A stretch of DNA of 64,000 bases from a virus (taxonomy: Duplodnaviria; Heunggongvirae; Uroviricota; Caudoviricetes). Each line of letters begins with the position of its first letter. Positions within the stretch are counted from its first letter, which is position 1. Shown piece after piece: positions 3,101 to 64,000 of this stretch. A program made the position numbers and the translations under genes. The notes beneath the pieces are model-generated. The model saw nothing but the letters and a program-made list of their open reading frames with translations, made no database searches and was not told the origin of the DNA. The stretch lies in IMG/VR virus record IMGVR_UViG_2690316311_000019, one strand, 5' to 3'.

Positions 3101-3172
3101 GCCAGACGTTCTGTGTCTTGTAAGGGGGACACTCGAGGTGTAGCTCATGACGTTTTGGGTATATTGCTCTAA
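131..3172 (+). CDS. dmt: Bifunctional DNA methyltransferase: N-terminal C5-cytosine MTase domain (interrupted by an intein) fused to C-terminal Dam-like N6-adenine MTase domain
   Basis: C5-MTase motifs (GGTP|[10 protein letters not shown] motif, [23 protein letters not shown]) and Dam motifs ([21 protein letters not shown]); position and architecture match P1 dmt. Confidence 0.88.
362..1384 (+). other. Intein (341 aa) with LAGLIDADG homing endonuclease, inserted between Pro and catalytic Cys of the C5-MTase PC motif
   Basis: Starts CFTAGH (block A), TTNDHPF (block B), two LAGLIDADG motifs ([23 protein letters not shown]), ends VVHN followed by Cys+1; lower GC than flanks. Confidence 0.85.
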
Positions 3173-3179
3173 TAAATTT
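3163..3179 (+). promoter_or_regulatory. C1 repressor operator (ATTGCTCTAATAAATTT) overlapping dmt stop codon
   Basis: Exact match to the P1 C1 operator consensus. Confidence 0.75.
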
Positions 3180-3353
3180 ATTAGTGTAATATCACCTCAA
3201 TGAATCGTGATTTATAGAGCGATTTAGCTGTTAGCCGCGACAGGCGCGGCGGTAAGCATGGCTGGGCCTAGTCCTCCCAGACAAACCACCGAGTTGCCAG
3301 GTTGACCATGCGCCTAAGTGGCAACGCCGAAGTGCGTTACGAGCGTCCAGTTT

Positions 3354-37285: not shown

Positions 37286-38317
37286 ATGTCCAATTTACTG
37301 ACCGTACACCAAAATTTGCCTGCATTGCCGGTCGAGGCAACGAGTGATGAGGTTCGCAAGAACCTGATGGATATGTTCAGGGATCGCCAGGCGTTTTCTG
37401 AGCATACCTGGAAAATGCTTCTGTCCGTTTGCCGGTCATGGGCGGCTTGGTGCAAGTTGAATAACCGGAAATGGTTTCCCGCAGAACCTGAAGATGTTCG
37501 CGATTATCTTCTATATCTTCAGGCGCGCGGTCTGGCAGTAAAAACTATCCAGCAACATTTGGGCCAGCTAAACATGCTTCATCGGCGGTCCGGGCTGCCA
37601 CGACCAAGTGACAGCAACGCTGTTTCACTGGTCATGCGGCGGATCCGAAAAGAAAACGTTGATGCCGGTGAACGTGCAAAACAGGCACTAGCGTTCGAAC
37701 GCACTGATTTCGACCAGGTTCGTTCACTCATGGAAAATAGCGATCGCTGCCAGGATATACGTAATCTGGCATTTCTGGGGATTGCTTATAACACCCTGTT
37801 ACGTATAGCCGAAATTGCCAGGATCAGGGTTAAAGATATCTCACGTACTGACGGTGGGAGAATGTTAATCCATATTGGCAGAACGAAAACGCTGGTTAGC
37901 ACCGCAGGTGTAGAGAAGGCACTTAGCCTGGGGGTAACTAAACTGGTCGAGCGATGGATTTCTGTCTCTGGTGTGGCTGATGATCCGAATAACTACTTGT
38001 TTTGCCGGGTCAGAAAAAATGGTGTTGCCTCGCCATCATCCACCAGCCAGCTATCAACTCGCGCCCTGGAAGGGATTTTTGAAGCAACTCACCGATTGAT
38101 TTACGGGGCTAAGGATGACTCTGGTCAGAGGTACCTGGCCTGGTCTGGACACAGTGCCCGTGTCGGAGCCGCGCGAGATATGGCCCGCGCCGGAGTTTCA
38201 ATACCGGAGATCATGCAAGCTGGTGGCTGGACCAACGTAAATATTGTCATGAACTATATCCGTAATCTGGATAGTGAAACGGGGGCAATGGTGCGCCTGC
38301 TGGAAGATGGTGATTAG
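37286..38317 (+). CDS. cre: Cre tyrosine recombinase
   Basis: 343 aa, near-identical to canonical Cre (MSNLLTVHQNLPALPV...). Confidence 0.98.
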   Translation: MSNLLTVHQNLPALPVEATSDEVRKNLMDMFRDRQAFSEHTWKMLLSVCRSWAAWCKLNNRKWFPAEPEDVRDYLLYLQARGLAVKTIQQHLGQLNMLHRRSGLPRPSDSNAVSLVMRRIRKENVDAGERAKQALAFERTDFDQVRSLMENSDRCQDIRNLAFLGIAYNTLLRIAEIARIRVKDISRTDGGRMLIHIGRTKTLVSTAGVEKALSLGVTKLVERWISVSGVADDPNNYLFCRVRKNGVASPSSTSQLSTRALEGIFEATHRLIYGAKDDSGQRYLAWSGHSARVGAARDMARAGVSIPEIMQAGGWTNVNIVMNYIRNLDSETGAMVRLLEDGD

Positions 38318-39529: not shown

Positions 39530-40318
39530 GTGACTTCAGTCAGAATCATCACACGCCCGGTACGGATGGATCCCTTTTCAAATATTCCATGGACGGCACA
39601 GTCTGAGTACCGGGCGCTACCTTCAGTTGTATTGCTAAGCCGCCGCTGGTGGCTTTTCTTTTTTGTAGGGGGCGCTATGGATAAGAAAATATGCGTTGTT
39701 TCGATGAGCGTCGGCAAACCGGCGTCAATGACTGCTGCATGGATCAATAACGAGCTGATAATGGCTGAGCGGACCAGCTACCCTGAACGCCGCCGCGATA
39801 TGGAACTCCAGCTGCTGCGCGAATTGCGAGAAAAAGAGGAAAAGGGTTTTATCGTGCTGGTGGAAGAGGAAAACAGCTTTATTACTGGTCGAGTTGGCCA
39901 GCGTGTAAGGTTGCGCGATCCCTTCATGAACAGCAGGCCGGTACTAATTGAGGCAATGCAGATTTATAAGGAGCTGGAACGCCAGAAAGCAATCAAGTTA
40001 CCGCGCAAGGAATCCGGCAAATACATCCTTCACAAAAGCATCTTCGATTCCGAACACGATAAAAAAGGCGATGAATTTTTCAACATCAACTGGAGCGAAA
40101 TAACGACAGAACATGTTCTGACGTTACTATGTTGCTTTGCGACGGAATACAACAACGTTGCCAGCGCCGACTACATCAGGGCAATGGCTGGAGAAGTTGA
40201 GGCCAATCAGGATACGTCGTTACTAAGTCCCCTAGTGAATATAATTCAAGCTACTCATGAAATTGCCGCGCGGAAAGTGCCTAAAGGTTCATTAACTGGT
40301 AAAGATAATTATCTTTAA
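39530..40318 (+). CDS. mat: Particle maturation protein Mat (start may be ATG at 39677)
   Basis: ORF in P1 mat position. Confidence 0.6.
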   Translation: MTSVRIITRPVRMDPFSNIPWTAQSEYRALPSVVLLSRRWWLFFFVGGAMDKKICVVSMSVGKPASMTAAWINNELIMAERTSYPERRRDMELQLLRELREKEEKGFIVLVEEENSFITGRVGQRVRLRDPFMNSRPVLIEAMQIYKELERQKAIKLPRKESGKYILHKSIFDSEHDKKGDEFFNINWSEITTEHVLTLLCCFATEYNNVASADYIRAMAGEVEANQDTSLLSPLVNIIQATHEIAARKVPKGSLTGKDNYL

Positions 40319-40322
40319 ACTT

Positions 40323-40346
40323 ATTGGGCGCTAACTATGCGCCCAT
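40323..40346. terminator. Bidirectional hairpin between convergent mat and PIN-like gene
   Basis: attgggcgc-taactat-gcgcccat. Confidence 0.5.
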
Positions 40347-40350
40347 TATA

Positions 40351-41301
40351 CTAATCAATAAATACACGGAATGTCTCCAGCATCCCTTCAGGATCTTTAT
40401 CCTCGTCACCTAATGATATTAGTCTTCTGGCAAGAAGTTTCACATCATCATCATCTTTGATGTAACCAACCTGATCATTTTCAAAATAAATATCAATTAT
40501 TTTTAGGATTTGCTCTTGTGTAAAGTGAGTGAGCTTTAATAATTTTGCTACAACTCGATGTGTTGTAGCAAAACTGCCAGAGTGTCGTAATTCATCTATA
40601 GTGAGATTAACTTCCATTTCCACCAAGTTACTAGCTTGAGGAAAGTGCTCGCCTATAAACTCTGATAAGCGGGAATAGATATGTGGTTCTGAATTTTTCT
40701 TTTTTTTCCACTCATGCTTCAAATATTCATTCATATCATCCTTTATAAAGGCACTTTTATAATCACCATCTTCAGTTATGATATATATATCCTCACCGTC
40801 TGGTATCGCTTTTAGCAAACATTCCCAATTAACTGCGTCACCATATGATTTATTTTTGCCTGGCGGGTTTCCAAGATCAAATCGAAGTTTCCCCTTATCT
40901 ATTGTTTCATCATCAGCCTCTATTTTAGATGCTGCATCAAAAATCCTTTTAATTACAATATCGGCAGCCAAAGCCTCCTCTTTAAACAATTTCTGGATAT
41001 CTGTAATAATTTCATTCTTTAACCTACCTGCTTCTATAACCTTATCATTAAATTGTGAATGCTTTTCATGTTGCCTAAAAATCTGGGGAAGCGCGGGCTT
41101 ATAATCTTTTGTTATTTCCTTTATGGTTTCAGAGAGAACTTTAGAACGATTTCTCCAGAACTCATTCACTAAAAGCTCTGGTAACCAAAGTTTTAAACGA
41201 CCATATTGATGTAAGGCAAATACTTTATCCAGCTCATCTAGTTTATCTCTACCCATCCTGTAAAATTCTAAATATAGATTTGTATCAATAAAAACATTCA
41301 T
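40351..41301 (-). CDS. PIN-like nuclease domain protein (316 aa) in the locus that holds res/mod in P1; candidate defence/exclusion gene
   Basis: N-terminus MNVFIDTN with downstream acidic residues (E43, D147, D170); markedly AT-rich gene. Confidence 0.7.
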   Translation of the reverse strand: MNVFIDTNLYLEFYRMGRDKLDELDKVFALHQYGRLKLWLPELLVNEFWRNRSKVLSETIKEITKDYKPALPQIFRQHEKHSQFNDKVIEAGRLKNEIITDIQKLFKEEALAADIVIKRIFDAASKIEADDETIDKGKLRFDLGNPPGKNKSYGDAVNWECLLKAIPDGEDIYIITEDGDYKSAFIKDDMNEYLKHEWKKKKNSEPHIYSRLSEFIGEHFPQASNLVEMEVNLTIDELRHSGSFATTHRVVAKLLKLTHFTQEQILKIIDIYFENDQVGYIKDDDDVKLLARRLISLGDEDKDPEGMLETFRVFID

Positions 41302-41362
41302 ATCACATCCTCATTAAGAGTAATTTAGGCCACTCTAAAAAATAAAGTGACCTAACAGGAAA

Positions 41363-41611
41363 TCAATCAGCATTCAGGAGCAATGCGTTATCTATGATGA
41401 TCTGCTCCCATTCTTCGAATGCCCGGTCGCGGACGCCCTGGGGAACGCTGTTAGTTTTGAAATCGACGACCGTACGCCATTTCCCGTCCGGACGGTACAT
41501 GCGCAGAGCTTTACTTCCCCCTTCCCTGCGCACCTCAACGTTATGCTTATCAGCAAACTCTTGTAATGCTCGTAGCGTCCCATGCTTTACTGTGTAGTAT
41601 CGCTTTTTCAA
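41363..41611 (-). CDS. lxc: C1 co-repressor Lxc
   Basis: 82-aa ORF, P1 synteny. Confidence 0.65.
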   Translation of the reverse strand: MKKRYYTVKHGTLRALQEFADKHNVEVRREGGSKALRMYRPDGKWRTVVDFKTNSVPQGVRDRAFEEWEQIIIDNALLLNAD

Positions 41612-42048
41612 GTTTTCTCTCCAGCCTGTGCTAAGGCTTCAACTTCCAAATCGTAAGACTCAAACTCATAGTCCTGGTCGTCAACTTCTTCAGGCACTGG
41701 CAATAAATGCCAGGCTGAGTATATCTGACCGTTATCAAAACGCTCCTGGCTGTAGAGCGTCGCAGCTATGAGCGTCAGCGCCGGGCGGTCATAACGGTAA
41801 ATTTTGCGAACGTCACGGTCAACGAGACGACCCAAATTACCATAACCGCGCTCCAGTAATAATTTTTTAATTTCCGGCCAGTATGGGCCATAGCTGCGGT
41901 ACAGGCGGGGATTTTTCAGTAATCGCCCGCGTAGCCCTGACAGGAAGAAATCAACGTATTCGTCTTCTGTCTTTCCTAACAACGCTGTACGGAGTACCGC
42001 CTCAAGATATGTTTTATTCGGTTTTATTGTATCAGATAGTGTGGCCAT
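41608..42048 (-). CDS. ulx: Ulx (upstream of lxc)
   Basis: 146-aa ORF between darB and lxc. Confidence 0.6.
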   Translation of the reverse strand: MATLSDTIKPNKTYLEAVLRTALLGKTEDEYVDFFLSGLRGRLLKNPRLYRSYGPYWPEIKKLLLERGYGNLGRLVDRDVRKIYRYDRPALTLIAATLYSQERFDNGQIYSAWHLLPVPEEVDDQDYEFESYDLEVEALAQAGEKT

Positions 42049-42081: not shown

Positions 42082-45000
42082 TTATGCGTATTGTTGGATG
42101 ACGGCCAGAACGTCCGCCACGTTGTGTTTTGTCTCGATAATCCACCAGTTACCCGGGAAATCGCTGTTCTTCGCCTTCGCTGGCAGCCAGCGAGCGCCGA
42201 ATTTTTCCTTGATTGCGTCTTTAGCACGGAAAAGAACGCCTTTCATGCCGGACGCCTCCTGAAGCCCAAATACCTCTCCAGCGGCGAATTTTGGTGCGTA
42301 CATCATCTTCAGGTCGGCAGTGGATACGCGATAATTCAGACCAAGAGACTGAGCTATGCTGGTGGCATCACCCTGTATTGATGATAACTCTTCTTGTTTC
42401 TCGTTTCTGGCGGCAATTTCTTCCTCCGTGATGTTGCCAAGGGCCAGGTTTATCCGATCAGCGTCGGCCTGTTTCTCTTCATCGGTGCGCCCGGCAAGAA
42501 CCGTGTTAATTCTCTGCAATATCTCCACATGATTCTTGCGCATGCTGAGCAAGTCCGGCGTAACCTCGTTAAGATCCACCAGCCCAAGGATGGCAAGGTC
42601 GGAAAACATTGATACCAGGTTGTAGGTCATGCGATAGCTGAGTTGACCATAGGCTGATGGCAACTTCATCGCATCCATTTTATAGGCATCCATAAATTTA
42701 GAGCCGTCGTTTACGACATCCGCAATTGCCGGTGTGATTTTTCCTGTGGTGGCGGCCTCCCTGATTGCTGTTACCCACGATTGAGTCAGCGCGGCGACTG
42801 CATGATTCAGATTGGCTTTCCGTTCTGCTGCAATGCGCGCGCTTGCTGCGTCCATTGCCTGCTTGATCTCGTCTTTATTGCTGTAAATGCCAATGGTGCC
42901 AAACTGTGCTGTGGTGATCTCATAATCTGACGCCCGGAACTCATTGGTACCGAAAATAGCATTGGTGACCTCAAGTTCAGAATCCCCGTTACGAGTAGCC
43001 CCCTGGTTTGTTTTTTCCGGCATTCTGGCGATCGCATCCGCTATTTTCTCCTGAATTGCTTCAGGGGATAGCGTATCTCCGTATGACGCGATTACATCGC
43101 CATAATTGGAGCCAAACAGTTCAACCAGGAATGTTTCTGCCGAACGGATCTGGCGGTTATTCCCTTCCGACATCATACCAAGCACCCATTTTGCAATTGA
43201 CGACTTCAGCGCGCCGTCACGGCGATCCGGGTAAACCGCATGCTTCAGTGGGTACGTATAGGTACCAACAAAATCAATGCTATAGCCTGACTCTGTAGTC
43301 TGAACGCCGTATGAGTCAGTGATTTTGATCATGCCGCGCTGCTGGAAACGGTAGAAATCGTCACAGGAAATGATGTCGTTAATCCCGGCGATGGAGACGC
43401 CACCACTGATTTTCTGCATAACAGCATCTTCATCGGGAGTTACATCAACCTGTTTATCCAGCGTCTTCACATCCCAGTTACCCGATTTGGTACCTTTGAA
43501 GGTAAAGATGATCTCCACGTCTGCGCGCTGGCTGTCGAAGTCCAGCGACTTAATGCGAACGATATCACCGGCACAATCATAGTATTGGCCTACACGCCAT
43601 GAGCGATCGCCGATAACAAGGAACTCATTCGCATGGTTAACCAGATCAGGATCAACATCCAGAATGCCTTTATTTATTGCATCCTCCACCAGCGGGCGCA
43701 GGCGTTTGATATCCGTCGCGGCCTTCTGAGTACGGTTCAATAATTTCTCATAGCGGGAGATGGCCTGAGAGATATTAGCCTTGCGCTGAATGGCGCTTTT
43801 CAACGACGCGCGATACTGTGCTAACAACATACGGTCTGTGTGATGGACGCTACCCCAGCGGGCTTTCCAGTCTGCGTTATCAGCTGCTTTGGCCATTACC
43901 GCCTGTTTGAATTTGGCGACGTCGGCGGTGGTCTTTTCAAGTTCCGCTTTGCTTCGCTCCAATTCAGCGGTAAGTACCTCCACATCCTCACCAGCTGCGT
44001 GCTGCGCCTTGATGTAGTTCTGAAGGTCGATAGTAGCCTGTTCTTTCTGGCGAGCGCGTTTCGCAGCTTTCGCCTTATCCATTTGAACCTGCATCATTGC
44101 CAGACGTTCGCCGTCATCCTTCGCGGTATACATCTGCATTTCGATCATGTCATTGGCGTCGGCGTTCTCCATTTCTGACTTATCTGAACGGAGGATATCG
44201 GAGATCCAGCCTGCTTTACGCTTCAGCGTCTTCAGTCGGTATTCATCGAAAGACCCCTTGCCGCAGTAGTAGTGAACGCGAACGCTTGCACGGTTGGAGC
44301 CAACTCGTGCACCGCGACCGTTACGTTGTGCGATGCTGGCTGGAGTCCACGGCAACGTCAGGTGGTGGATATCCGTCGTTCCTCGATGCAGGTTGATACC
44401 CACCTCTGCCTTTTTGTTGCAGATGATGATCGGAGTCCGGCCCTCCTGGAAGTCGGCTGCAATCTTTTCCAGACCGCCCAACGACATTTCATTTTGCTGC
44501 GCGATATAGGCGTCATACCGAGCCATTTGCTCGTTGTATTTCGCTATCTGCGCATCTGTTGGTTCATCCGGTAGCTCTTTCGGCGGTTTAACAGCTTTCA
44601 GTTTCTGACCGGTTTTACCTGCCTCGGCAACCGTCTGAGCATTCAGGATCCCCACCTTTGAAGGTTCAAGGTTAAGAGCATTGCAGATAATGCGCTTGAG
44701 CTTCTGGTGCTGCGTTTTTTCATCGGTGAAGATGATTTGCTTACCTTCCGGGAAAAACTCCTTCAGCGTGGCAATCAGCTTCGCGTATTTGGGCGTAACG
44801 GGGTGAGTTACGGTCTGTTCGTCAATGCCAAACCTGGCCAGGCGCTTATTCACTTCCTGCTCGAACGCTTCCGGAACCTGCAACTGAATAAACTCGCCCT
44901 TATCTATCAGGGAGTATTGCGATTGCTGCGTGATTGAATCATCACTGTCGTCGTCTTCGCTGGTGGCTTGTTTAGGCAAACTGTCCGCCAGCTGCTGCAC

Positions 45001-47994
45001 CGCATCGGCATACTCCGGCAGGAAACGATAGGTGATCCGGCGATAGTACAGGTCCATGTCAGTACATACGCGGTCCATATCCCTGATTATTGAGAAGATC
45101 GGACGGGCTTTCTCGTGCTCAATCACGCCGTCTTCATTGACCGAGGTCGTTACGCCATTGTTGGCTTTGGCTGCCGCTTCCGCCTGCTGACGCAATTCTT
45201 CATACGCCGCCAGTTGTTCTTCAGTAAGTGGTGCATCCTGCTGGTGTTCGTCCAGTTCCGGGATCTCCACGGTATCCTTAACGTCTTCCGCCGTTTTAAG
45301 CGTTGTCCAGCGATGGAATATGCCGCGCAGCGCATCAAGGTTTTCAAAACCCACCAGCGCCATTTTTTCTTCAACTTCGCCGCTGATTTTCTGTACCGTT
45401 TCCAGCCTGGTCTTGCCGAAGAATTTAACGAAGTCATCAGGACCGTAGATCCCCATCTTCTGCCAGTATTCCTTCGGCAGCACATGAGAAAGCATGTTGT
45501 ATGCATCGATCGGGGTGTTAACTACTGGCGTTGCAGTCAGGAGAACCGGTCCGCGCCCACCATTCTTTTTCATCAGGTACGCGTTTTTGATTGCCATATC
45601 CCGCGCCGATTGCGCCACCGCGCTGGTGGGCAGATAGGCCAGTTGTGACGCTTCGCGACCATTTTTATAGCTATTGCGGTAGTTGTGGCCTTCGTCAGCA
45701 ATCACGCTGTCGAAGCCCATATCCTCAAAGTACGGATACTTCTCTGCTTTTTCGGTACCGGTATCTGAATACTCCGACAATACCCGGCGACGCGCCGCCT
45801 CTTTGCGATGGGAATCGGAGTCCATTGCGCTGGCCACACGCCCGGCAGCAACGAAGTCATAAAGCATGTCTTGTGCATGCTCATCTACGGTGTCATCACG
45901 TAGCGGAATGCGGGCGTATTGTTCTTTGGTAAACACGACTGCACGGTAATTTGAGTGCGGGATCGCGTTCATCCGCGCCGTGATAGTGGCTTCATCTGCC
46001 AGCTTAAGAGCATCGCGCATAACTGGAGTGCCATCAGTACCAAGAACAGGTTTACCGTTCTCATCGAGCACCGGCACCTGGCGAATCTGATCGCCATCCA
46101 TCAGCACATCAAGACCGACGAACAGGTAGTTACTGAATGCCTCTTCACTCAGGAACTCTTTTGCTTCGTAATACCAGTTTTCCAGCACTGCTTTAGGCAC
46201 TACATAAGCAGTACGGGTGGAGCGACCGTTCTCATAGTTGAACGCCTCAAGCGCCAGCGCGGTCGTCGTTTTACCCAGCCCGGTGCCGAAGCCCAGGATG
46301 CCGCGCCCATCTTCGGACAGTCGGCGCACCTCGCTATTCTGGTAATCAAATGGCTGGCGCTTACCGCTTAATCCCTTCAACCCAAGCGGATCGCCAGAGT
46401 GTTCATACGGGATATTGCTATTGAACACATCGTTGTATTTGGCAACCAGCTCATCGTAGCGATCGTGCGTCTTGAGCCACTTATTGAACTGGTCCTCAAG
46501 CAGTGCCATCTGCTCGCGGTAGCCGTTCGCCGTCGCGCTATCTTTGCCACCGATACGCGCACCATTGAGATACTTTTCCAGCTGTGCCGGGAACCCGGTC
46601 GCGTTTTCACCTGATTTACGGTCCCACTCGTAGCGGATCTCGCCTGTTTCTTTATCCTTGCGCTGGACGACACCGTATCGGTGTCCGACGAACAGACCAT
46701 CACCACCGTGATAGGTGTCAGAAACCATTTCGTCGCCTTCCAGCTGCACTGACTGCACATAGCGCAGATCCGGATAGCCGTTTTCCTGCAAAAATTCCAG
46801 AATGACGGAACGGTCGAACCAACGGCTATTGAGCTTAAAGCGGATATTCTCTGCTGGCGTCTTGATGCGCTTCTCTTCGATCGCTGCCAGCTGATTAAGG
46901 ACGTTGTTCTTTACTGGACCGTCGGGGAGCGTGGCGAGGAATTCCTGTTTTGGAGCCACTATCTCGTTAATGTCGCCGCTGGTGGCGCGGGCGAACGGAA
47001 CAATCCCGCCATACGGTGAAACCGCAATACCAGGGGTGCTGGCCAATAAATTAAGCAACTCTTTATCACTGGCTGGCAGTTCGCCGGTAAACGCAAGGCG
47101 GAAATCATCGAGCTGGATTGGATCGCGGGTAAGATCGCTATAGAGATAACGCAGGATGTCCTGATAGCTGGTGGAGTCATAACTGGCGCTGGAATCATGC
47201 GTAACCAGCTTTCCTGTCAGCTCGTCAGAAATAGTGCCATCCAGCTTAATCGCACCACGGAAAGCAAACCAGGCGCGCGCACCGCTCCCCGACAATTTCG
47301 CTATAGGACCGCGACCAGGATTACCAAAGCGGTCAATCTCTGCCTGCAAACGGGATACCAGAGAAAGGCGCTGCTGTTCGATTTGTTCAGCACTATGCCC
47401 GGCGGCCTTCATATCCTGATATTCAATTAACATCCGGCCAATCATCGCCCCGCGATACAAGCGTTCACGGTATTTTTCAGGCTGGCTGTTAATCCAGTCC
47501 ACCAGCTGCACCATATCGTCGCTGATTGATGTGGTGTACTTATCGCGGACATTTGCCATCTGGGTAAATGTCATGCCGAGACGACCTTCTGTGGTAGTCA
47601 GGTTACGCTGAAGAGCCTCCCAGCTATCCGCGCCATAACTGGCAACATCAATCTTCAGCTCCTTCCCGGCATCAGCTTCAATCCAGCGACCACCAGCATA
47701 TTTTTGCCATACGCCATTAATCAGGCGCATTTCCCCTTCATCAACAACATCTGCGGTCGGTGACGGTTCAGCCATATCGAGCAAAGACCAGTCGATACGA
47801 CTTTCGAAACGATGAATCAGCTTCGCTTTAAGAGCCAGGTTATCAATCTGCCCGTCGGCACGAACCTCAATACGCCCCTGGAAACCCTTCTCCTGGGTGC
47901 CATGAACAAACCGGCGGCCGTCCTTTTCGAACCACTTGCCAGAAATAAACGTTGGCCAAAGCACATTTGCCGATTCAAGAGTGCCTTCATCCAC
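42082..47994 (-). CDS. darB: DarB antirestriction protein, C-terminal 1970 aa (SF2 helicase region); frame-broken from N-terminal part
   Basis: Helicase motifs GFGTGLGKTTTA, DEGHNYRN, GRGARVGS; 8-nt overlap with upstream ORF. Confidence 0.85.
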   Translation of the reverse strand: MDEGTLESANVLWPTFISGKWFEKDGRRFVHGTQEKGFQGRIEVRADGQIDNLALKAKLIHRFESRIDWSLLDMAEPSPTADVVDEGEMRLINGVWQKYAGGRWIEADAGKELKIDVASYGADSWEALQRNLTTTEGRLGMTFTQMANVRDKYTTSISDDMVQLVDWINSQPEKYRERLYRGAMIGRMLIEYQDMKAAGHSAEQIEQQRLSLVSRLQAEIDRFGNPGRGPIAKLSGSGARAWFAFRGAIKLDGTISDELTGKLVTHDSSASYDSTSYQDILRYLYSDLTRDPIQLDDFRLAFTGELPASDKELLNLLASTPGIAVSPYGGIVPFARATSGDINEIVAPKQEFLATLPDGPVKNNVLNQLAAIEEKRIKTPAENIRFKLNSRWFDRSVILEFLQENGYPDLRYVQSVQLEGDEMVSDTYHGGDGLFVGHRYGVVQRKDKETGEIRYEWDRKSGENATGFPAQLEKYLNGARIGGKDSATANGYREQMALLEDQFNKWLKTHDRYDELVAKYNDVFNSNIPYEHSGDPLGLKGLSGKRQPFDYQNSEVRRLSEDGRGILGFGTGLGKTTTALALEAFNYENGRSTRTAYVVPKAVLENWYYEAKEFLSEEAFSNYLFVGLDVLMDGDQIRQVPVLDENGKPVLGTDGTPVMRDALKLADEATITARMNAIPHSNYRAVVFTKEQYARIPLRDDTVDEHAQDMLYDFVAAGRVASAMDSDSHRKEAARRRVLSEYSDTGTEKAEKYPYFEDMGFDSVIADEGHNYRNSYKNGREASQLAYLPTSAVAQSARDMAIKNAYLMKKNGGRGPVLLTATPVVNTPIDAYNMLSHVLPKEYWQKMGIYGPDDFVKFFGKTRLETVQKISGEVEEKMALVGFENLDALRGIFHRWTTLKTAEDVKDTVEIPELDEHQQDAPLTEEQLAAYEELRQQAEAAAKANNGVTTSVNEDGVIEHEKARPIFSIIRDMDRVCTDMDLYYRRITYRFLPEYADAVQQLADSLPKQATSEDDDSDDSITQQSQYSLIDKGEFIQLQVPEAFEQEVNKRLARFGIDEQTVTHPVTPKYAKLIATLKEFFPEGKQIIFTDEKTQHQKLKRIICNALNLEPSKVGILNAQTVAEAGKTGQKLKAVKPPKELPDEPTDAQIAKYNEQMARYDAYIAQQNEMSLGGLEKIAADFQEGRTPIIICNKKAEVGINLHRGTTDIHHLTLPWTPASIAQRNGRGARVGSNRASVRVHYYCGKGSFDEYRLKTLKRKAGWISDILRSDKSEMENADANDMIEMQMYTAKDDGERLAMMQVQMDKAKAAKRARQKEQATIDLQNYIKAQHAAGEDVEVLTAELERSKAELEKTTADVAKFKQAVMAKAADNADWKARWGSVHHTDRMLLAQYRASLKSAIQRKANISQAISRYEKLLNRTQKAATDIKRLRPLVEDAINKGILDVDPDLVNHANEFLVIGDRSWRVGQYYDCAGDIVRIKSLDFDSQRADVEIIFTFKGTKSGNWDVKTLDKQVDVTPDEDAVMQKISGGVSIAGINDIISCDDFYRFQQRGMIKITDSYGVQTTESGYSIDFVGTYTYPLKHAVYPDRRDGALKSSIAKWVLGMMSEGNNRQIRSAETFLVELFGSNYGDVIASYGDTLSPEAIQEKIADAIARMPEKTNQGATRNGDSELEVTNAIFGTNEFRASDYEITTAQFGTIGIYSNKDEIKQAMDAASARIAAERKANLNHAVAALTQSWVTAIREAATTGKITPAIADVVNDGSKFMDAYKMDAMKLPSAYGQLSYRMTYNLVSMFSDLAILGLVDLNEVTPDLLSMRKNHVEILQRINTVLAGRTDEEKQADADRINLALGNITEEEIAARNEKQEELSSIQGDATSIAQSLGLNYRVSTADLKMMYAPKFAAGEVFGLQEASGMKGVLFRAKDAIKEKFGARWLPAKAKNSDFPGNWWIIETKHNVADVLAVIQQYA

Positions 47995-54035: not shown

Positions 54036-54818
54036 GTGGAAAATACTAAAGCAATTCAATACCGCCTGCGTAATGGTCAGAGTGTCGAAGTGACCATCAA
54101 TAATGATGGTGTGCCTGGCGAAAAGGTTTCGATCTCTGATCTGGCTATCGAAAAAACCATCATGTGCCACCTTGGCTTTACTGAAGAAGTGAGCAAAAAG
54201 CATGGTGTAGCAATCTGGAGCGCAATGGATACTGGTATGCGCAGATTCATTACTGCTCGTACCCCAGGGATGACCATGATGGACCTCATGCAGATTGCGC
54301 CGCTGTTTGAATGTGAGCCTTTAGATGTATTCAGCAATCCAGCTATCTGCCAGCAGCTATATGGTGAGATGAAACTCGCGGTTACCCCCATTGTGCTGCA
54401 TGAAGGATCGCTTGCTGGTGTGTGGAAAGTGGAGCGTATTTCAAGCTACATGCCTTTCCATGTCAACGGCGTAATCACTGGTGAAAATCAACCTGTTTCC
54501 GTTATAAAGTCAGACCTCAAGCGCGCAATTCTTGAAGCAAGTTGTCGAGTTGTCGGCCTGGGCAAACAGTCTTATGTTTCCTTCCCGGCTGGCCCTGAAG
54601 GCCCGGCAGAAATTCTGATTATGGATGCCGATCTGCTCTGGCAAATACAGTTTCTGATTGGCAAAAGCATCATCCGCGCTGAAGAACTCGATCAGTACAT
54701 TACCTGCACGATGACGGATGAAGTCAAAAGTGTGGCTATAGCCAATGCCCGGAACCTATGTCGTGCTGCATTAACAGAACTGCAAGAAAACACCACGGAA
54801 GAAGTGGAAAGTGATTAA
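54036..54818 (+). CDS. Hypothetical protein
   Basis: 260-aa ORF. Confidence 0.55.
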   Translation: MENTKAIQYRLRNGQSVEVTINNDGVPGEKVSISDLAIEKTIMCHLGFTEEVSKKHGVAIWSAMDTGMRRFITARTPGMTMMDLMQIAPLFECEPLDVFSNPAICQQLYGEMKLAVTPIVLHEGSLAGVWKVERISSYMPFHVNGVITGENQPVSVIKSDLKRAILEASCRVVGLGKQSYVSFPAGPEGPAEILIMDADLLWQIQFLIGKSIIRAEELDQYITCTMTDEVKSVAIANARNLCRAALTELQENTTEEVESD

Positions 54819-55064
54819 AAAGAACCCGCCAATTGGCGGGTTCTTTATTTATTGAATTAGCATTCAACTCCCGATTGTTATAGCGAACACTATGTAACAG
54901 AATAATATTATTAACATTTTAGTAATAAGTTGATTATTCATCTTCTGTATTCGCAAAGCGTAAGTATTGCTCATAGTTTCTTATTCCAGTACATTGTGAT
55001 TCGTTGAGGCAAAAGAATAGTGGCAATTCTACTGGCAATAAACTCAAGTAAGAGGTTGTAAACA

Positions 55065-55352
55065 ATGGAAAAACTGAACAATTTCTTAGACAAAATATCC
55101 ACCACAAACACTCGCGCAGGCCACACTATTACCCGCATAGCTAAGCTAAGCGATGCGGGTGTCAGTGATGACGTAATCGCACTTCAACTGTCCAGTAACA
55201 GTGCAAATGGCTTCCGATATACAGCAGATGAAATAAAAGCGTATAAGAAGCTCCACAATGATGTAAAAACTAAAGTGGGAATTACATCCAAACAAACAAA
55301 AGCATTAATCAAAGATCAAGAGCTGACTTTTGTTGCATTGCCTCAAAACTAA
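55065..55352 (+). CDS. Small hypothetical protein in AT-rich island
   Basis: 95-aa ORF. Confidence 0.45.
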   Translation: MEKLNNFLDKISTTNTRAGHTITRIAKLSDAGVSDDVIALQLSSNSANGFRYTADEIKAYKKLHNDVKTKVGITSKQTKALIKDQELTFVALPQN

Positions 55353-55380
55353 ATTTGTTTAAAGCTATAGCTAACAAAGA

Positions 55381-55426
55381 GTTATAAGAGCGATAGTGAT
55401 AAATTTATCATTGTCGCTCTTATAAC
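55381..55426. repeat. 46-bp near-perfect palindrome
   Basis: gttataagagcgatagtgataaa|tttatcattgtcgctcttataac. Confidence 0.8.
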
Positions 55427-55555
55427 CTTGTTAAAGATAAGAATATAACCCAAAAGATATACATGGGTTATTAAGGCCATAATTATCAGGCAAATAACAT
55501 GAAGTCGTCTATGTGATGGATGAAATTTGAACAATCAATTCTATGCCAATTCCTG

Positions 55556-55876
55556 TCAATACAAGAGTTGGTTGACTGTTTCATCACTAAAACCCTCTTC
55601 ATCGTCATCATCATCCTCATCGCCACCATCTACTGCTGGCCAATCAACAAACCAGCCAGCGTAAAGATGCAGCGTTCGGAGAACATCACTTGCGGGAGCA
55701 TCAAGGGTGTTAACGAATCCCATATAGCTATTGGGATTTGCCCCAGCTATGGCTTCAGCGATCATGTCCTCGGTAATGTCACCGGAGATAATGCTTAAAC
55801 GCCCGGAAACTTCTTCATTATCATCAAATTCGATAATGGCATCTCCACCTAATGGCGCTGCGATTTTAATCTGCAT
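55556..55876 (-). CDS. Small acidic protein at the 3' end of the dar operon
   Basis: 106-aa ORF with DGGDEDDDDDEEG tract. Confidence 0.5.
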   Translation of the reverse strand: MQIKIAAPLGGDAIIEFDDNEEVSGRLSIISGDITEDMIAEAIAGANPNSYMGFVNTLDAPASDVLRTLHLYAGWFVDWPAVDGGDEDDDDDEEGFSDETVNQLLY

Positions 55877-62181: not shown

Positions 62182-62507
62182 TTCCCACCTCCCTTTTTCA
62201 CCAAACTTGTAAGAACATTCAGAATGCTATCGATATTCACTCGTTTCATCCCTGAAATCACCTCATGACCGTTATTGCTGGCTATCGTTACCATTAAGTA
62301 CGTAATTGATAACTCCCAGCCCTCGTGTTGCCCCAATAGGTACGCCACCGCGCCAGCTGTCACTGCAACAAAGATCTCCGTAACCAATCCCAACAAATTG
62401 CCAGACTGGCGACCGTCTCGGACATCCATCAGGAACGTGCCTATCCCACCAATTACTGAAAGCAGGAGCGCAATAGCAACTGGAGCTAATTCCTGTGTGT
62501 CAAGCAC
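62178..62507 (-). CDS. lydA: Holin LydA
   Basis: 109 aa with hydrophobic TM segments. Confidence 0.7.
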   Translation of the reverse strand: MLDTQELAPVAIALLLSVIGGIGTFLMDVRDGRQSGNLLGLVTEIFVAVTAGAVAYLLGQHEGWELSITYLMVTIASNNGHEVISGMKRVNIDSILNVLTSLVKKGGGK

Positions 62508-63331
62508 AAGTTCCCTCCTACGTTGTCAGGAGGTAATGGTATGCAAAGTAACTTCTCAACCGGTCATGCAAAGACAACAAGCGGAAAAAGAAAAGCAAAG
62601 CCTGCTACAGCTCGTCAGGGATAAAACTCAGCTCTGGGACTCACAGTTACGGCTAGGCATTATTTCCGTTCAGGGTAAACAAAAATTAACCGAGTGGATT
62701 CTCTATGCGCAGAAAGTCGAATCCACGGATACCTCCATCCTTCCAGTAACGTTTCCCGAAAAGCCGGAATGAGGAAAGGCCCGGAATCGGGCCTTAATTA
62801 ATATCTATAAGCTCAACAAATAAGAGCTAACAATTTTGTTAATTTCCTCTGGAAATAATGCATTGTGCTTATATATACCTGAAGCTATATTAAAGAGCGT
62901 CATGTAAAAAATAAACCAATCAATTAAATCTATTTTCAACAAACAAGTCAAAATTTTTAACAGATATGTATAGAAATGGCAAGCCATAAATTAATAATGA
63001 CATCCTTAATAAGTCTAAAGAAACACTAAATAGATAAAATATAAATTATTACATCCAAAAATATAGAAAGTGTTGGCAATCTTGCAACTCATTATCAATA
63101 CAATATTGACATCCCTTTAGCGCTCAGTTTAAAATTAACATTTGTGTTTACATTGTGCGTTGATTTAGTTTAGCAGGAACGCAGTAACACACTGATGATT
63201 ATTGTTTTAATTATAATGTCAATATATAAACATAGAAACCAAAAAATATAGGCAGTTGCAATATGTTATGTTACTTAATAGCTATTCACTTTGTCATCTT
63301 CGGGAATTCAAAAGCTCTATTGAGCTACTGG

Positions 63332-63835
63332 ATGGCTGAAATCATCAGGCGTGAAAAAATGGATGTTTGGCGACTATTAAGAGAGAAGAAGCAGCGCAAT
63401 CGGAATTTCCTTTTCTGGTGGAGACTGGCTAATGAAATGTATATTAATGGCAATAAATTACATAAGAAAGCAGCCAGAAAGTTAAACAATAATATAATTA
63501 ACAGATTTGGTTGCGAAATTGGATTGGGCGCAAATATTGGAAAAGGTTTAACAATTCCCCATCATACTGGAATTGTTGTTCATTTTGCTGTTGATGCTGG
63601 TGAAAATCTGGTTTTGCGACAGAATACTACCATTGGACAGGTAGATGGTGACATGCCTGGTTCAAGAGTAAAAATTGGTAATAACGTTGATATCGGAGCT
63701 AATTGTTGCATCATTGGATTATCACGTAAAATTGGGGATAATGTAAAAATAGGTGCAATGTCTTTTATAAATAAAGATATACCATCGAACTGCACATATA
63801 TAACAAAAAAGAGCGGTGTTGTATTGTATAAATAG
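63332..63835 (+). CDS. Hexapeptide-repeat acyltransferase (CysE/LacA-like left-handed beta-helix); start uncertain (track 63263)
   Basis: Repeated [LIV]G-x-x-x-x motifs (IGNNVDIGANCCIIG, IGDNVKIGAMSFI); AT-rich. Confidence 0.7.
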   Translation: MAEIIRREKMDVWRLLREKKQRNRNFLFWWRLANEMYINGNKLHKKAARKLNNNIINRFGCEIGLGANIGKGLTIPHHTGIVVHFAVDAGENLVLRQNTTIGQVDGDMPGSRVKIGNNVDIGANCCIIGLSRKIGDNVKIGAMSFINKDIPSNCTYITKKSGVVLYK

Positions 63836-63843
63836 AGTACATG

Positions 63844-63880
63844 AAGCCATCAATATTTCTATCGATGGCTTTATCCTTTT
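63844..63880 (+). terminator. Rho-independent terminator after acyltransferase gene
   Basis: aagccatc...gatggctt hairpin followed by T-rich run. Confidence 0.65.
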
Positions 63881-64000
63881 ATTGCGGGGCGACTGGCCAC
63901 TCAACATCCGATGCTACTGTTGTATCAACACGATTCAACAATACCCGATATGTCTTCCATGCAGTCAGTAACGATGCCTCTTCCTCCGTCGCAATATCCA
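63879..64000 (-). CDS. 3' end of a leftward gene whose start lies beyond the window
   Basis: Open minus-strand frame from window edge to TAA at 63879-63881. Confidence 0.4.

What the first reader, a model, noticed from the sequence alone, without database searches (positions are those of the whole stretch)
40319..41362. AT-rich single-gene PIN-like module where P1 carries its type III restriction-modification genes
From cre to darB the synteny with P1 is intact, but the interval between mat and lxc, which in P1 holds res and mod, here holds one 316-aa gene on the darB strand. Its N-terminus (MNVFIDTN..., then E43, D147, D170) looks like a PIN ribonuclease fold with an inserted helical region and an uncharacterised C-terminal half of about 140 aa. 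The gene is much more AT-rich than both flanks and is bracketed by hairpins, which points to horizontally acquired cargo. A lone nuclease-like gene at a defence locus is a plausible undescribed antiphage, abortive-infection or exclusion system; I cannot match it to a named system from sequence alone.
Basis: partly seen in the sequence, partly recalled or inferred. Interest (0 to 1): 0.88.

Follow-up and report, generated by a model that had tools for sequence, protein, structure and literature searches.

The report
PIN nuclease cargo in P1 defence hotspot
A P1-like phage-plasmid carries, in the slot where phage P1 keeps its restriction system, one foreign gene that fuses a PIN nuclease to a small helical module also found on TIR proteins, making it a plausible but untested single-protein anti-phage system.

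Summary
A 316-aa gene (40351-41301, minus strand; GC 0.34 against about 0.50 in the flanks) fills the mat-lxc interval of an otherwise P1-syntenic backbone, with a stable hairpin on each side.

The protein belongs to the uncharacterised PIN_12/DUF4935 family (VapC-like fold). Its last ~95 aa form a separate six-helix alpha-solenoid module.

- **Hotspot:** the slot is a real cassette hotspot. Other P1-like plasmids carry type III RM, the SJ46 RelA/SpoT gene (identified as CapRel^SJ46), SIR2, DUF2971, YaaC plus a partner, GNAT, or nothing. All share a junction at the lxc stop.
- **Homolog context:** most homologs examined lie in defence islands or a prophage.
- **The module:** it is portable. 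It is fused to TIR domains in two other proteins and matches the C-terminus of PADLOC candidate PDC-S34 in all 116 family members scanned. It weakly but recurrently matches the ssDNA-sensing C-terminal region of DARNA (PD-T7-3).

Best reading: a lysogen-expressed, single-protein abortive-infection system made of a PIN RNase effector and a sensor module. Defence, substrate and trigger are all untested. It is a new variant of a known kind, of moderate to high interest.

The parts
40351..41301 (-). Single cargo gene, 316 aa (RefSeq WP_001100381.1, 'PIN domain-containing protein'): a PIN_12/DUF4935 nuclease fused to a C-terminal helical module
   Evidence: ORF. Pfam PIN_12 3e-16 and PIN_8 2.6e-13. 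AF2 model pLDDT 91.1. 100% identical copy annotated in NZ_CP013030.1. dN/dS 0.079 against the JL22 allele.
40642..41301 (-). PIN domain (aa 1 to ~220) with a long helical insert after strand 2 (aa 42-107). Invariant D6, N8, E47, R52, D114, R140, PPGK146-149, G154-D155, W159, D178, D180
   Evidence: 53-sequence alignment, residue check, secondary structure. Foldseek hits to VapC/PIN structures 1w8i, 1y82, 1ye5, 5h4g, 3zvk with probability up to 0.98-0.99 but E >= 0.036.
40354..40638 (-). C-terminal portable module (aa 222-316): a six-helix alpha-solenoid. Conserved S241-x-x-F244 and N275-x-Q277-x-x-(W/Y)280-I-x-x-D284-x-D286
41302..41362 (-). 61-nt lxc-PIN spacer: 13-bp hairpin (41355-41325), a second small hairpin overlapping the Shine-Dalgarno GAGGA (41312-41308), and no convincing sigma-70 promoter
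   Evidence: Sequence, scan, fold -20.7 kcal/mol with z -4.0. The P2mod-equivalent hexamers are weak: ACGCAT / TGATTT.
40322..40348 (.). GC-rich hairpin between the convergent mat and PIN stop codons; probably a bidirectional terminator
   Evidence: Inverted repeat I3. Folds at -13.7 and -14.4 kcal/mol, z -4.3 and -4.9.
40248..41364 (.). Exchangeable cassette (1,117 bp, GC 0.346): last ~71 nt of mat, terminator, PIN gene and spacer
   Evidence: BLAST break-points against JL22, SJ46, RCS47 and P1. All cargo types share the right junction at the lxc stop, while left junctions are scattered in the last ~130 nt of mat. GC values.
39677..40318 (+). mat (maturation control), the conserved left flank. 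Its 3' end belongs to the cassette
   Evidence: Annotation of JL22, RCS47, SJ46 and P1; ORF.
41363..42048 (-). lxc (41363-41611) and ulx (41608-42048), the conserved right flank lying directly upstream on the PIN strand and the likely source of transcription
   Evidence: ORFs. P1 annotation with promoters P1-P3lxc. 98.1% nt identity to JL22 although the PIN alleles differ by dS 0.41.

Best explanation
The gene is lysogenic-conversion cargo in the mat-lxc defence hotspot of P1-like phage-plasmids. It most likely encodes a single-protein, abortive-infection-type anti-phage or exclusion system.

**Shown.**
- It is a foreign, AT-rich cassette under strong purifying selection.
- It occupies a slot that other P1-like elements fill with type III RM, the SJ46 RelA/SpoT gene (identified as CapRel^SJ46), SIR2 or DUF2971 genes.
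- The protein is a PIN_12/DUF4935 nuclease domain with a complete set of invariant acidic residues.
- It carries a separate ~95-aa alpha-solenoid module that is also found fused to TIR domains.

**Inferred mechanism.**
1. The gene is transcribed with ulx-lxc in the lysogen.
2. The PIN domain is a Mg2+-dependent VapC-like endoribonuclease, with tRNA, rRNA or mRNA as likely targets.
3. The protein itself keeps the PIN domain inactive, because no antitoxin gene is present.
4. The C-terminal module senses an infection cue through its conserved loop residues (S241/F244 and N275/Q277/W-Y280/D284/D286) and switches the nuclease on, probably through oligomerisation. Translation stops and the superinfecting phage is aborted.
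5. By analogy with DARNA, whose C-terminal domain gives weak but recurrent profile matches to this module, the cue may be single-stranded DNA presented by a foreign phage SSB. This last step is the least certain.
For: **Cargo status.** GC 0.343 against about 0.50. The cassette boundaries are shared by all cargo types.

**Hotspot.** A 16-kb query matched 754 plasmid records, about 700 of them at 95% identity or more. Slot contents were verified as:
- SIR2;
- DUF2971;
- YaaC plus a partner gene;
- GNAT;
- a RelA/SpoT gene in SJ46, matching PDC-S33 at 7e-87; CapRel^SJ46 is published as a defence system of phage SJ46 (PMC9712102);
- type III RM in P1;
- nothing in RCS47.
SIR2 and DUF2971 match PADLOC PDC-S25/ThsA and PDC-S31.

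**Functional gene.** dN/dS is 0.079 between two alleles with dS 0.41, while the flanks are 98% identical.

**PIN domain.** Pfam, invariant acidic residues, model pLDDT 91, VapC/HARP fold hits.

**Homolog context.**
- The 64%-identical homolog sits among HsdSM, HNH, Mrr, ScoMcrA, CbtA/CbeA and SymE.
- The Pantoea homolog is a prophage moron.
- The Paraburkholderia homolog sits among Abi, Dcm-Vsr-Eco29kI, SIR2+ATPase and ATPase+HEPN.
- The Xanthomonas homolog sits among ABC-3C, DUF2326 and NERD.
- The Vibrio, Salegentibacter and Labilibaculum homologs lie in variable regions next to big helicases, EndoU and DUF4145.

**Module portability.** TIR-module fusions P0169 and P0240, with 39% and 33% identity to the window module at E 1e-8 and 3e-10. 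PDC-S34 matches only its last ~70 profile positions, in all 116 proteins scanned.

**DARNA link.**
- PD-T7-3 profile region 293-413 is hit by the window protein (7e-5), by P0240 (0.0044) and by 7 of 63 fresh representatives. That makes it the second most frequent family, against 3 or fewer for any unrelated one.
- The module has a HEAT-like fold, and the DARNA CTD is described as Pds5-like (preprint 10.64898/2026.02.22.705581).
- The DARNA ssDNA contacts F368, N402/Q403 and W406 resemble the module's conserved F244, N275/Q277 and W/Y280 in order and spacing.
Against: - No experiment exists. Neither the protein accession nor DUF4935 appears in any defence study in the held library.
- PADLOC does not call it as a system, and a published P1-like phage-plasmid survey did not list it.
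- The DARNA relation rests on individually weak hits (14-20 bits for the two whose bit scores were shown). Only 1 of the first 53 members hit it, and chance-level hits of similar strength to unrelated models occur (Orf5 3e-5, HamA 3e-4).
- The DARNA sequence could not be obtained, so the residue correspondence was never aligned.
- Foldseek E-values for the PIN domain are weak (0.036 or higher).
- One homolog (Aeromonas) sits in an ordinary chromosomal context.
- Not every cargo of the slot is a recognised defence gene (GNAT, YaaC).
- No promoter was identified; co-transcription with lxc is an inference.
Confidence: 0.6

Rival explanations
1. It is a direct, non-abortive restriction-type nuclease. 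The PIN domain cuts incoming phage or plasmid nucleic acid (DNA or phage transcripts) itself, with the C-terminal module acting as a target-recognition or nucleic-acid-binding domain, so the cell survives. This would make it a functional replacement for the type III R-M system of P1.
For: It occupies the same slot as res/mod. PIN-like superfamily members include DNA nucleases (Matelska 2017). The helical-repeat module resembles nucleic-acid-binding repeats such as Pumilio and RESC. The TIR fusion P0240 carries what looks by eye like a winged-helix DNA-binding region before the module.
Against: The family falls in the VapC-like structural group, whose characterised members are RNases. There is no methylase or other self-protection partner in the cassette. 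The same module is fused to TIR, a typical abortive-infection NADase or signalling effector. The related DARNA acts by abortive infection.
Confidence: 0.15
2. It is a plasmid-maintenance or competition toxin: an addiction or post-segregational killing factor, or a weapon against competing P1-like or IncY elements, rather than a defence against lytic phages.
For: PIN/VapC domains are classic toxin-antitoxin toxins. The gene rides on a low-copy phage-plasmid; all 31 copies in complete E. coli genomes are on plasmids, none on chromosomes.
Against: There is no antitoxin gene in the cassette, and the upstream gene lxc is backbone shared by all cargo types. Close homologs are chromosomal, in a defence island and a prophage, where addiction makes little sense. 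The slot's other occupants are defence systems. Many P1-like plasmids have an empty slot, so it is not needed for maintenance.
Confidence: 0.1
3. It is a phage lytic-cycle or housekeeping nuclease (host RNA shut-off, RNA processing or anti-defence) that benefits P1 development itself.
For: It is adjacent to mat, a late-gene maturation control, and to the anti-restriction genes ulx and darB. PHROG 9788 (unknown function) shows that phage-borne relatives exist.
Against: It is absent from P1, P7, RCS47, SJ46 and most P1-like plasmids, so it is not part of the phage core. It is oriented with the lysogenically expressed lxc operon. Most relatives are bacterial, monocistronic and located in defence islands. 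Only one record of 50,697 in the phage collection carries it.
Confidence: 0.07

Closest known systems
PIN_12 / DUF4935 family (Pfam PF16289; Matelska et al. 2017, PMC5499597)
   Same: Full-length membership. The PIN_12 score is 60.7 bits against a cut-off of 32. It has the same ~320-350 aa monocistronic architecture, a long helical insert after strand 2, conserved acidic residues and an unexplained C-terminal part.
   Different: Nothing differs structurally; the family itself has no known function. New here: the phage-plasmid hotspot location, the definition of the C-terminal ~95 aa as an independent portable module, and its links to TIR fusions, PDC-S34 and DARNA.
DARNA (PD-T7-3), the ssDNA-activated HEPN tRNase (bioRxiv 10.64898/2026.02.22.705581; Vassallo 2022, PMC9519451)
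   Same: It is also a single-protein system from E. coli with an N-terminal RNase-type effector and an all-helical C-terminal domain. There are weak but recurrent profile matches of the module to PD-T7-3 profile positions 293-413, the part that should contain the ssDNA-contact residues. The fold is HEAT-like. The order of conserved aromatic, N/Q and W residues is similar.
   Different: The effector is PIN, not HEPN, and there is no RX4H motif. The protein is 316 aa against 456 aa, and the module is ~95 aa against a ~300-aa CTD. Oligomeric state, substrate and trigger are unknown.
PDC-S34 (PADLOC-DB v2 'phage defence candidate', single gene)
   Same: The last ~70 profile positions (299-373 of 384) match the module in every family member tested, with best E-values of 1.6e-16 and 5.1e-18.
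   Different: The first ~300 positions of the PDC-S34 profile never match. PDC-S34 therefore has another N-terminal region, and this protein is not a PDC-S34 member. PDC-S34 is itself only a candidate without published validation that I could find.
CapRel^SJ46 (fused toxin-antitoxin defence; Zhang et al. 2022, PMC9712102)
   Same: The RelA/SpoT gene that I identify as CapRel^SJ46 occupies exactly the same mat-lxc slot in phage SJ46. The logic is also the same: one polypeptide with an N-terminal toxic enzyme and a C-terminal regulatory or sensor domain.
   Different: The folds and chemistry are unrelated. CapRel is a RelA/SpoT pyrophosphokinase with a pseudo-ZFD antitoxin domain that senses capsid protein. 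There is no sequence similarity.
VapC toxins of type II VapBC toxin-antitoxin systems
   Same: The PIN fold and acidic active-site residues. These are the best structural matches (1w8i, 1y82, 5h4g, 3zvk, 6a7v).
   Different: There is no VapB antitoxin gene. The protein is twice the size, with a large helical insert and an extra C-terminal module. It is monocistronic.
EcoP1I type III restriction-modification (P1 res/mod)
   Same: The same genomic slot and strand in the P1 backbone, and presumably the same role of lysogenic-conversion immunity.
   Different: There is no methyltransferase, no helicase-nuclease Res and no homology. It is a single 951-bp gene instead of ~5-6 kb.

Membership tests
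PIN_12 / DUF4935 (PF16289) | Sequence match to the family HMM above the curated gathering score | tested here: met
   60.7 bits against a cut-off of 32, E 3e-16, aa 3-181 covering profile 1-172/172.
PIN_12 / DUF4935 (PF16289) | Conserved acidic metal-binding residues of a PIN active site | tested here: met
   D6, E47, D114, D155, D178 and D180 are invariant in 53 homologs with 32-90% identity to the window protein.
PIN_12 / DUF4935 (PF16289) | PIN (VapC-like) three-dimensional fold | tested here: met
   AF2 model pLDDT 91.1. Top Foldseek PDB hits are PIN/VapC/HARP proteins with probability up to 0.98-0.99, though E-values are weak at 0.036 or higher.
PIN_12 / DUF4935 (PF16289) | Metal-dependent nuclease activity | not testable with these tools
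   Needs biochemistry.
DARNA / PD-T7-3 | N-terminal HEPN RNase domain with an RX4H motif | tested here: not met
   The N-terminal domain is PIN_12/PIN_8. There is no HEPN hit in Pfam or PADLOC.
DARNA / PD-T7-3 | Homologous C-terminal helical ssDNA-sensing domain | tested here: inconclusive
   PD-T7-3 profile 293-398 is hit at 7e-5. Only 1 of the first 53 relatives hit it, but 7 of 63 independent representatives did (best 6.7e-5), and so did the TIR fusion P0240 in the same profile region. The fold class is compatible. The DARNA sequence and structure (9tra-9tre) were not available.
DARNA / PD-T7-3 | ssDNA-contact residues (F368, D372, Q403, W406, N408) conserved | not testable with these tools
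   There is no DARNA sequence to align. The module has invariant or near-invariant F244, N275, Q277 and W/Y280 in a similar order and spacing; this is a lead only.
DARNA / PD-T7-3 | Anti-phage abortive infection; activation by ssDNA presented by phage SSB; dodecamer | not testable with these tools
   Needs phage assays, biochemistry and cryo-EM.
PDC-S34 (PADLOC candidate) | Full-length match to the PDC-S34 profile (384 positions) | tested here: not met
   Only profile positions 299-370 match (aa 227-298). The same holds for all 116 relatives scanned and for two divergent plasmid homologs.
VapBC type II toxin-antitoxin | Adjacent small antitoxin gene (VapB) co-transcribed with the PIN toxin | tested here: not met
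   The cassette 40248-41364 holds one gene. The upstream gene lxc is backbone present with every cargo type and in the empty site.
Type III restriction-modification (the P1 occupant of the slot) | Mod methyltransferase plus Res helicase-nuclease | tested here: not met
   There are no such ORFs or domains in 40248-41364.
Cargo of the P1-like mat-lxc defence hotspot | Lies between the mat 3' end and the lxc stop, with the junctions used by other cargos | tested here: met
   The right junction is at the lxc stop for the PIN, CapRel, RM III, SIR2, DUF2971, YaaC and GNAT cassettes. The left junction lies within the last ~130 nt of mat.
Cargo of the P1-like mat-lxc defence hotspot | Demonstrated anti-phage activity | not testable with these tools
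   No experiment is available, and no literature on this protein was found.

The most novel reading that the evidence does not exclude
The ~90-aa C-terminal alpha-solenoid is a portable, DARNA-type sensor of single-stranded DNA (or of ssDNA presented by foreign phage SSB). Evolution has plugged it onto at least three different suicide effectors: HEPN (DARNA), PIN (this gene and over a thousand relatives) and TIR (P0169, P0240). That would define a sensor-centred superfamily of single-protein abortive-infection systems. P1-like phage-plasmids would use the PIN version for superinfection exclusion. Their own E. coli-like SSB would avoid self-triggering; this last point rests on my knowledge of P1, not on anything tested here.
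Probability: 0.2. Interest if true: 0.8.

Novelty: new variant of a known kind. Interest (0 to 1): 0.62.

Why it matters
**A testable candidate.** If confirmed, this would assign a first biological function, anti-phage defence, to the widespread and uncharacterised PIN_12/DUF4935 family. At least 1,366 representative clusters carry the module.

**A hotspot worth mining.** It would establish the mat-lxc interval of P1-like phage-plasmids as a compact, easily mined defence hotspot. The YaaC pair and the lone GNAT gene found there are also unrecognised by current defence-finding tools.

**Modular immunity.** One small sensor module fused to PIN, TIR and probably HEPN effectors would be a clean example of effector swapping around a common sensor. 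It would also extend the newly described DARNA activation mechanism well beyond HEPN proteins.

**Practical relevance.** P1-like phage-plasmids circulate in clinical and livestock E. coli and Salmonella, including O157:H7 and O111:H8 strains. Their cargo influences phage susceptibility, which matters for phage therapy and for P1 transduction.

Tried and rejected
1. **PDB sequence searches** with the protein and with a 53-sequence profile found nothing meaningful. DARNA entries 9tra-9tre are not in the copy.
2. **Obtaining the DARNA (RCP48690.1) sequence** failed.
   - No supplement text is held for the preprint.
   - The Vassallo tables give only the accession, coordinates and 18-19-nt primer ends, too short for the BLAST tools.
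   - The Vassallo supplement text contains no mention of DUF4935 or PIN.
3. **Word-indexed homolog search with the module alone** returned only fragments of the same family. The same search with the post-TIR part of P0240 returned only P0240 itself.
4. **The exhaustive HMM search with the module** was saturated by PIN-family members. Only two non-PIN architectures, both TIR, surfaced in the top 150, so HEPN-module or PDC-S34-type proteins could not be retrieved.
5. **The AFDB Foldseek library** was unavailable.
6. **tblastn of a module consensus against all plasmids** found only PIN-family genes.
7. **'PDC-S34 is just a divergent DUF4935 branch'** is not supported. Divergent 369-389-aa PIN_12 proteins still match only its last ~70 positions. 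A very divergent PIN N-terminus in PDC-S34 cannot be excluded.
8. **A dedicated sigma-70 promoter in the spacer** was not found. The P2mod-equivalent hexamers are poor.
9. **NCBIfam** gave no hit. PHROGs gave only an unknown-function family.
10. **Context for the TIR fusions** could not be obtained because the contigs are too short.
Full report
**1. What is in the sequence**

The window carries a P1-like backbone: cre (37286-38317), c8, ref, mat, then lxc (41363-41611), ulx (41608-42048) and darB (42082-47994) on the minus strand. Annotated records of P1, P7, RCS47, SJ46 and JL22 confirm the gene order. They also confirm that P1 has res, mod and an IS5 between mat and lxc.

In the window, that interval holds one ORF: 40351..41301, minus strand, 316 aa, with a GAGGA Shine-Dalgarno 7 nt upstream.

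- **Composition.** The gene's GC is 0.343 (GC3 0.274), against 0.477 and 0.518 in the flanks. Only 1% of equal-sized windows in the 64 kb are as AT-rich.
- **Hairpins.** Two hairpins bracket the gene. One is a 13-bp stem in the 61-nt lxc-PIN spacer (the spacer folds at -20.7 kcal/mol, z -4.0). The other is a GC-rich stem between the convergent mat and PIN stops (z -4.3 and -4.9).

The invariant acidic residues are D6, E47, D114, D155, D178 and D180.

**2. The cassette and the hotspot**

BLAST break-points show that the foreign segment is 40248-41364. It starts inside the last ~71 nt of mat and ends exactly at the lxc stop codon.

A 16-kb query matched 754 plasmid records, about 700 of them at 95% identity or more. 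Fetching representatives showed that the same slot holds a range of cargos:

| Cargo in the mat-lxc slot | Example |
|---|---|
| 435-aa SIR2 protein | NZ_CP029117 |
| 336-aa DUF2971 protein | NZ_CP127257 |
| YaaC protein plus a 169-aa partner | NZ_CP060935 |
| GNAT acetyltransferase | NZ_MW390536 |
| RelA/SpoT protein | phage SJ46 |
| Type III R-M | P1 |
| Nothing | RCS47 |

- All cargo types share the right junction at the lxc stop (within a few bp). Left junctions are scattered within the last ~130 nt of mat. This is the signature of cassette exchange by recombination in conserved flanks.
- PADLOC recognises the SIR2 cargo (PDC-S25/ThsA-like), the DUF2971 cargo (PDC-S31) and the SJ46 RelA/SpoT protein (PDC-S33, 7e-87).
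- CapRel^SJ46 is an experimentally proven fused toxin-antitoxin defence system of phage SJ46 (PMC9712102). I identify the SJ46 slot gene with it because it is the RelA/SpoT gene annotated at this position in that phage.
- A published survey of P1-like phage-plasmids lists RM III, dGTPase, PrrC and CapRel but not this PIN gene.

**3. Distribution and selection**

- The exact gene is RefSeq WP_001100381.1, 'PIN domain-containing protein'.
- It occurs in 30 of 5,426 complete E. coli genomes, always on plasmids of roughly 90-108 kb and never on a chromosome. It comes as two alleles, at least 99% and about 90% nt identical.
- It is also found in 23 plasmid records from Escherichia (E. coli, E. albertii, E. 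fergusonii), Salmonella and Klebsiella, and in one phage record, JL22.
- Between the two alleles dS is 0.41 and dN/dS is 0.079, while the adjacent lxc-ulx is 98.1% identical. The gene is therefore functional, and the alleles entered the backbone independently.

**4. The protein**

- **Family.** Pfam assigns aa 3-181 to PIN_12 (PF16289, formerly DUF4935; 60.7 bits against a cut-off of 32) and to PIN_8. Matelska et al. 2017 describe DUF4935/PIN_12 as VapC-like and usually monocistronic, with unknown function and an unexplained C-terminal region. DUF4935 appears in only two papers in the library, neither on phage defence.
- **Structure.** An AF2 model built on 53 homologs is confident (pLDDT 91.1). 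It shows the PIN sheet with a long helical insert (aa 42-107).
- **Fold matches.** The best Foldseek PDB matches are VapC/PIN proteins and PIN-like RNase P. Probabilities reach 0.98-0.99, but E-values are 0.036 or higher. No full-length relative has been solved.
- **Conserved residues of the module.** S241, F244, N275, Q277, W/Y280, I281, D284 and D286 lie in the H1-H2 loop and the H3-H4-H5 junction. By hairpin topology these lie at the same end of the bundle. That inference suggests a binding site.

**5. The module is portable**

- PADLOC's candidate PDC-S34 matches every family member scanned (53/53 and 63/63; best 1.6e-16 and 5.1e-18), but only over its last ~70 profile positions (299-373 of 384). 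The same is true of divergent 369-389-aa PIN_12 proteins from Paraburkholderia and Xanthomonas. PDC-S34 therefore shares the module and not the PIN domain.
- An exhaustive HMM search with the module found 1,366 representative clusters at E <= 1e-3. Nearly all of the top 150 are PIN_12 proteins or fragments of them.
- Two are not. P0169 (299 aa) and P0240 (398 aa) carry TIR domains (TIR_2 at 6.4e-14 and 3.6e-27) in front of the same module.
- Pairwise, only the module aligns: 39% identity (E 1e-8) and 33% identity (E 3e-10).

**6. The DARNA lead**

The window protein also hits the PADLOC model PD-T7-3 (7e-5; aa 178-281 against profile 293-398 of 432). PD-T7-3 was found in ECOR30 by Vassallo et al.. 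It has since been renamed DARNA. According to the preprint, it has:

- an N-terminal HEPN tRNA anticodon nuclease;
- a Pds5-like helical C-terminal domain that binds ssDNA through F368, D372, N402, Q403, Y405, W406 and N408;
- a dodecameric assembly;
- activation by ssDNA presented by phage SSB;
- an abortive-infection mode of action.

On its own the hit is weak. Only 1 of the first 53 relatives hit the model, and unrelated models gave similar chance-level hits. In an independent set of 63 representatives, however, PD-T7-3 was the second most frequent family: 7 members, best 6.7e-5, against 3 or fewer for any unrelated model. The TIR fusion P0240 hits the same profile region, 295-413.

The fold class and the order and spacing of conserved residues are compatible (F ... 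N-x-Q-x-x-W in the module, against F368 ... N402-Q403-x-x-W406 in DARNA). I regard remote homology as plausible but unproven, because I could not obtain the DARNA sequence or coordinates.

**7. Context of homologs**

| Homolog | Neighbourhood |
|---|---|
| 64% identical | Island with HsdS/HsdM, AlpA, HNH, a YfjP-like GTPase, KlcA, RadC, CbtA/CbeA, Mrr, ScoMcrA-HNH and SymE |
| 66% identical (Pantoea) | Prophage moron beside the serine recombinase |
| Paraburkholderia plasmid | Abi protein, Vsr-Dcm-Eco29kI, SIR2+ATPase and ATPase+HEPN |
| Xanthomonas plasmid | ABC-three-component protein, DUF2326, DUF5677 and NERD |
| Vibrio, Salegentibacter, Labilibaculum | Variable regions with large AAA_11/12 helicases, EndoU/YopA/DUF3800, or DUF4145 |
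| Aeromonas | Unremarkable |

This is guilt by association, not an enrichment statistic.

**8. Expression**

No convincing sigma-70 promoter lies in the spacer. The hexamers equivalent to P1's P2mod are poor (ACGCAT / TGATTT). The gene lies 61 nt downstream of lxc on the same strand, and P1 has three promoters for the ulx-lxc operon. I infer read-through transcription in the lysogen. The spacer hairpins may attenuate it, since the second one pairs with the Shine-Dalgarno.

**9. Interpretation**

The best-supported reading (confidence about 0.6) is a lysogenic-conversion, single-protein anti-phage system. A VapC-like PIN RNase would be held inactive within the protein, since no antitoxin gene exists. 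It would be released when the C-terminal module senses an infection cue, giving abortive infection.

The DARNA-like cue, ssDNA presented by foreign SSB, is the most specific and least certain step (about 0.2).

Rivals:
- a direct restriction-type nuclease (0.15);
- a plasmid addiction or competition toxin (0.10);
- a phage developmental nuclease (0.07).

**10. Novelty and score**

The protein family is catalogued, so the gene is not unclassifiable. Three things were not found in the literature searched:
- its role;
- the hotspot;
- the portable module linking PIN, TIR, PDC-S34 and probably HEPN/DARNA proteins.

I rate it a new variant of a known kind, namely a single-protein sensor-effector abortive-infection system with a swapped effector. 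The family is known and large, nothing is experimentally shown, and the most exciting link is still weak.

Noticed in passing
window 62350-63950 (ORF 63263..63835, + strand): This is a second strongly AT-rich patch (951-bp GC down to 0.314), next to ORFs that look by eye like the P1 lydA/lydB lysis genes. It holds a 190-aa ORF with a weak hexapeptide-transferase hit (Hexapep 1.9e-5, below the Pfam cut-off). It is probably another acquired moron, possibly an acetyltransferase.
   Followed up: partly
window 54600-55800 (ORF 55065..55352, + strand): This is a third low-GC patch (GC 0.369). It holds a 95-aa ORF with no Pfam match, upstream of a 995-aa minus-strand gene.
   Followed up: no
L018:6415-7964 (NZ_CP060935.1) and L019:6528-7136 (NZ_MW390536.1), same mat-lxc slot: Other P1-like plasmids fill the slot with a YaaC protein (PF14175, 1.4e-45) plus a 169-aa partner resembling a nucleoside 2-deoxyribosyltransferase (1.8e-4, below cut-off), or with a lone GNAT acetyltransferase. 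PADLOC recognises none of these, so they are further untested defence candidates.
   Followed up: partly
window 40248-40318 (3' end of mat): The last ~70-130 nt of mat travel with the cargo cassette. Mat proteins of P1-like elements therefore have different C-termini depending on which cargo they carry.
   Followed up: partly
window 41302-41340 (minus strand): Besides the 13-bp hairpin, the lxc-PIN spacer RNA is predicted to form a second small hairpin that pairs ACUCUU with the Shine-Dalgarno GAGGAU. This could attenuate translation of a potentially toxic nuclease.
   Followed up: no
P0240 (398 aa, metagenomic; aa 225-300): Between its TIR domain and the shared module, this TIR-module fusion has a coiled-coil stretch and what looks by eye like a winged-helix DNA-binding region. 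Its match to the PD-T7-3 profile starts inside that region (aa 250).
   Followed up: no
L001 (phage JL22, ON018986.2) 2567-3318: In JL22, mat is annotated as two overlapping 'Mat-like' CDSs, and cre is labelled 'GST-loxP-cre recombinase fusion protein'. These look like annotation artefacts in the only phage-database record carrying the PIN gene.
   Followed up: no
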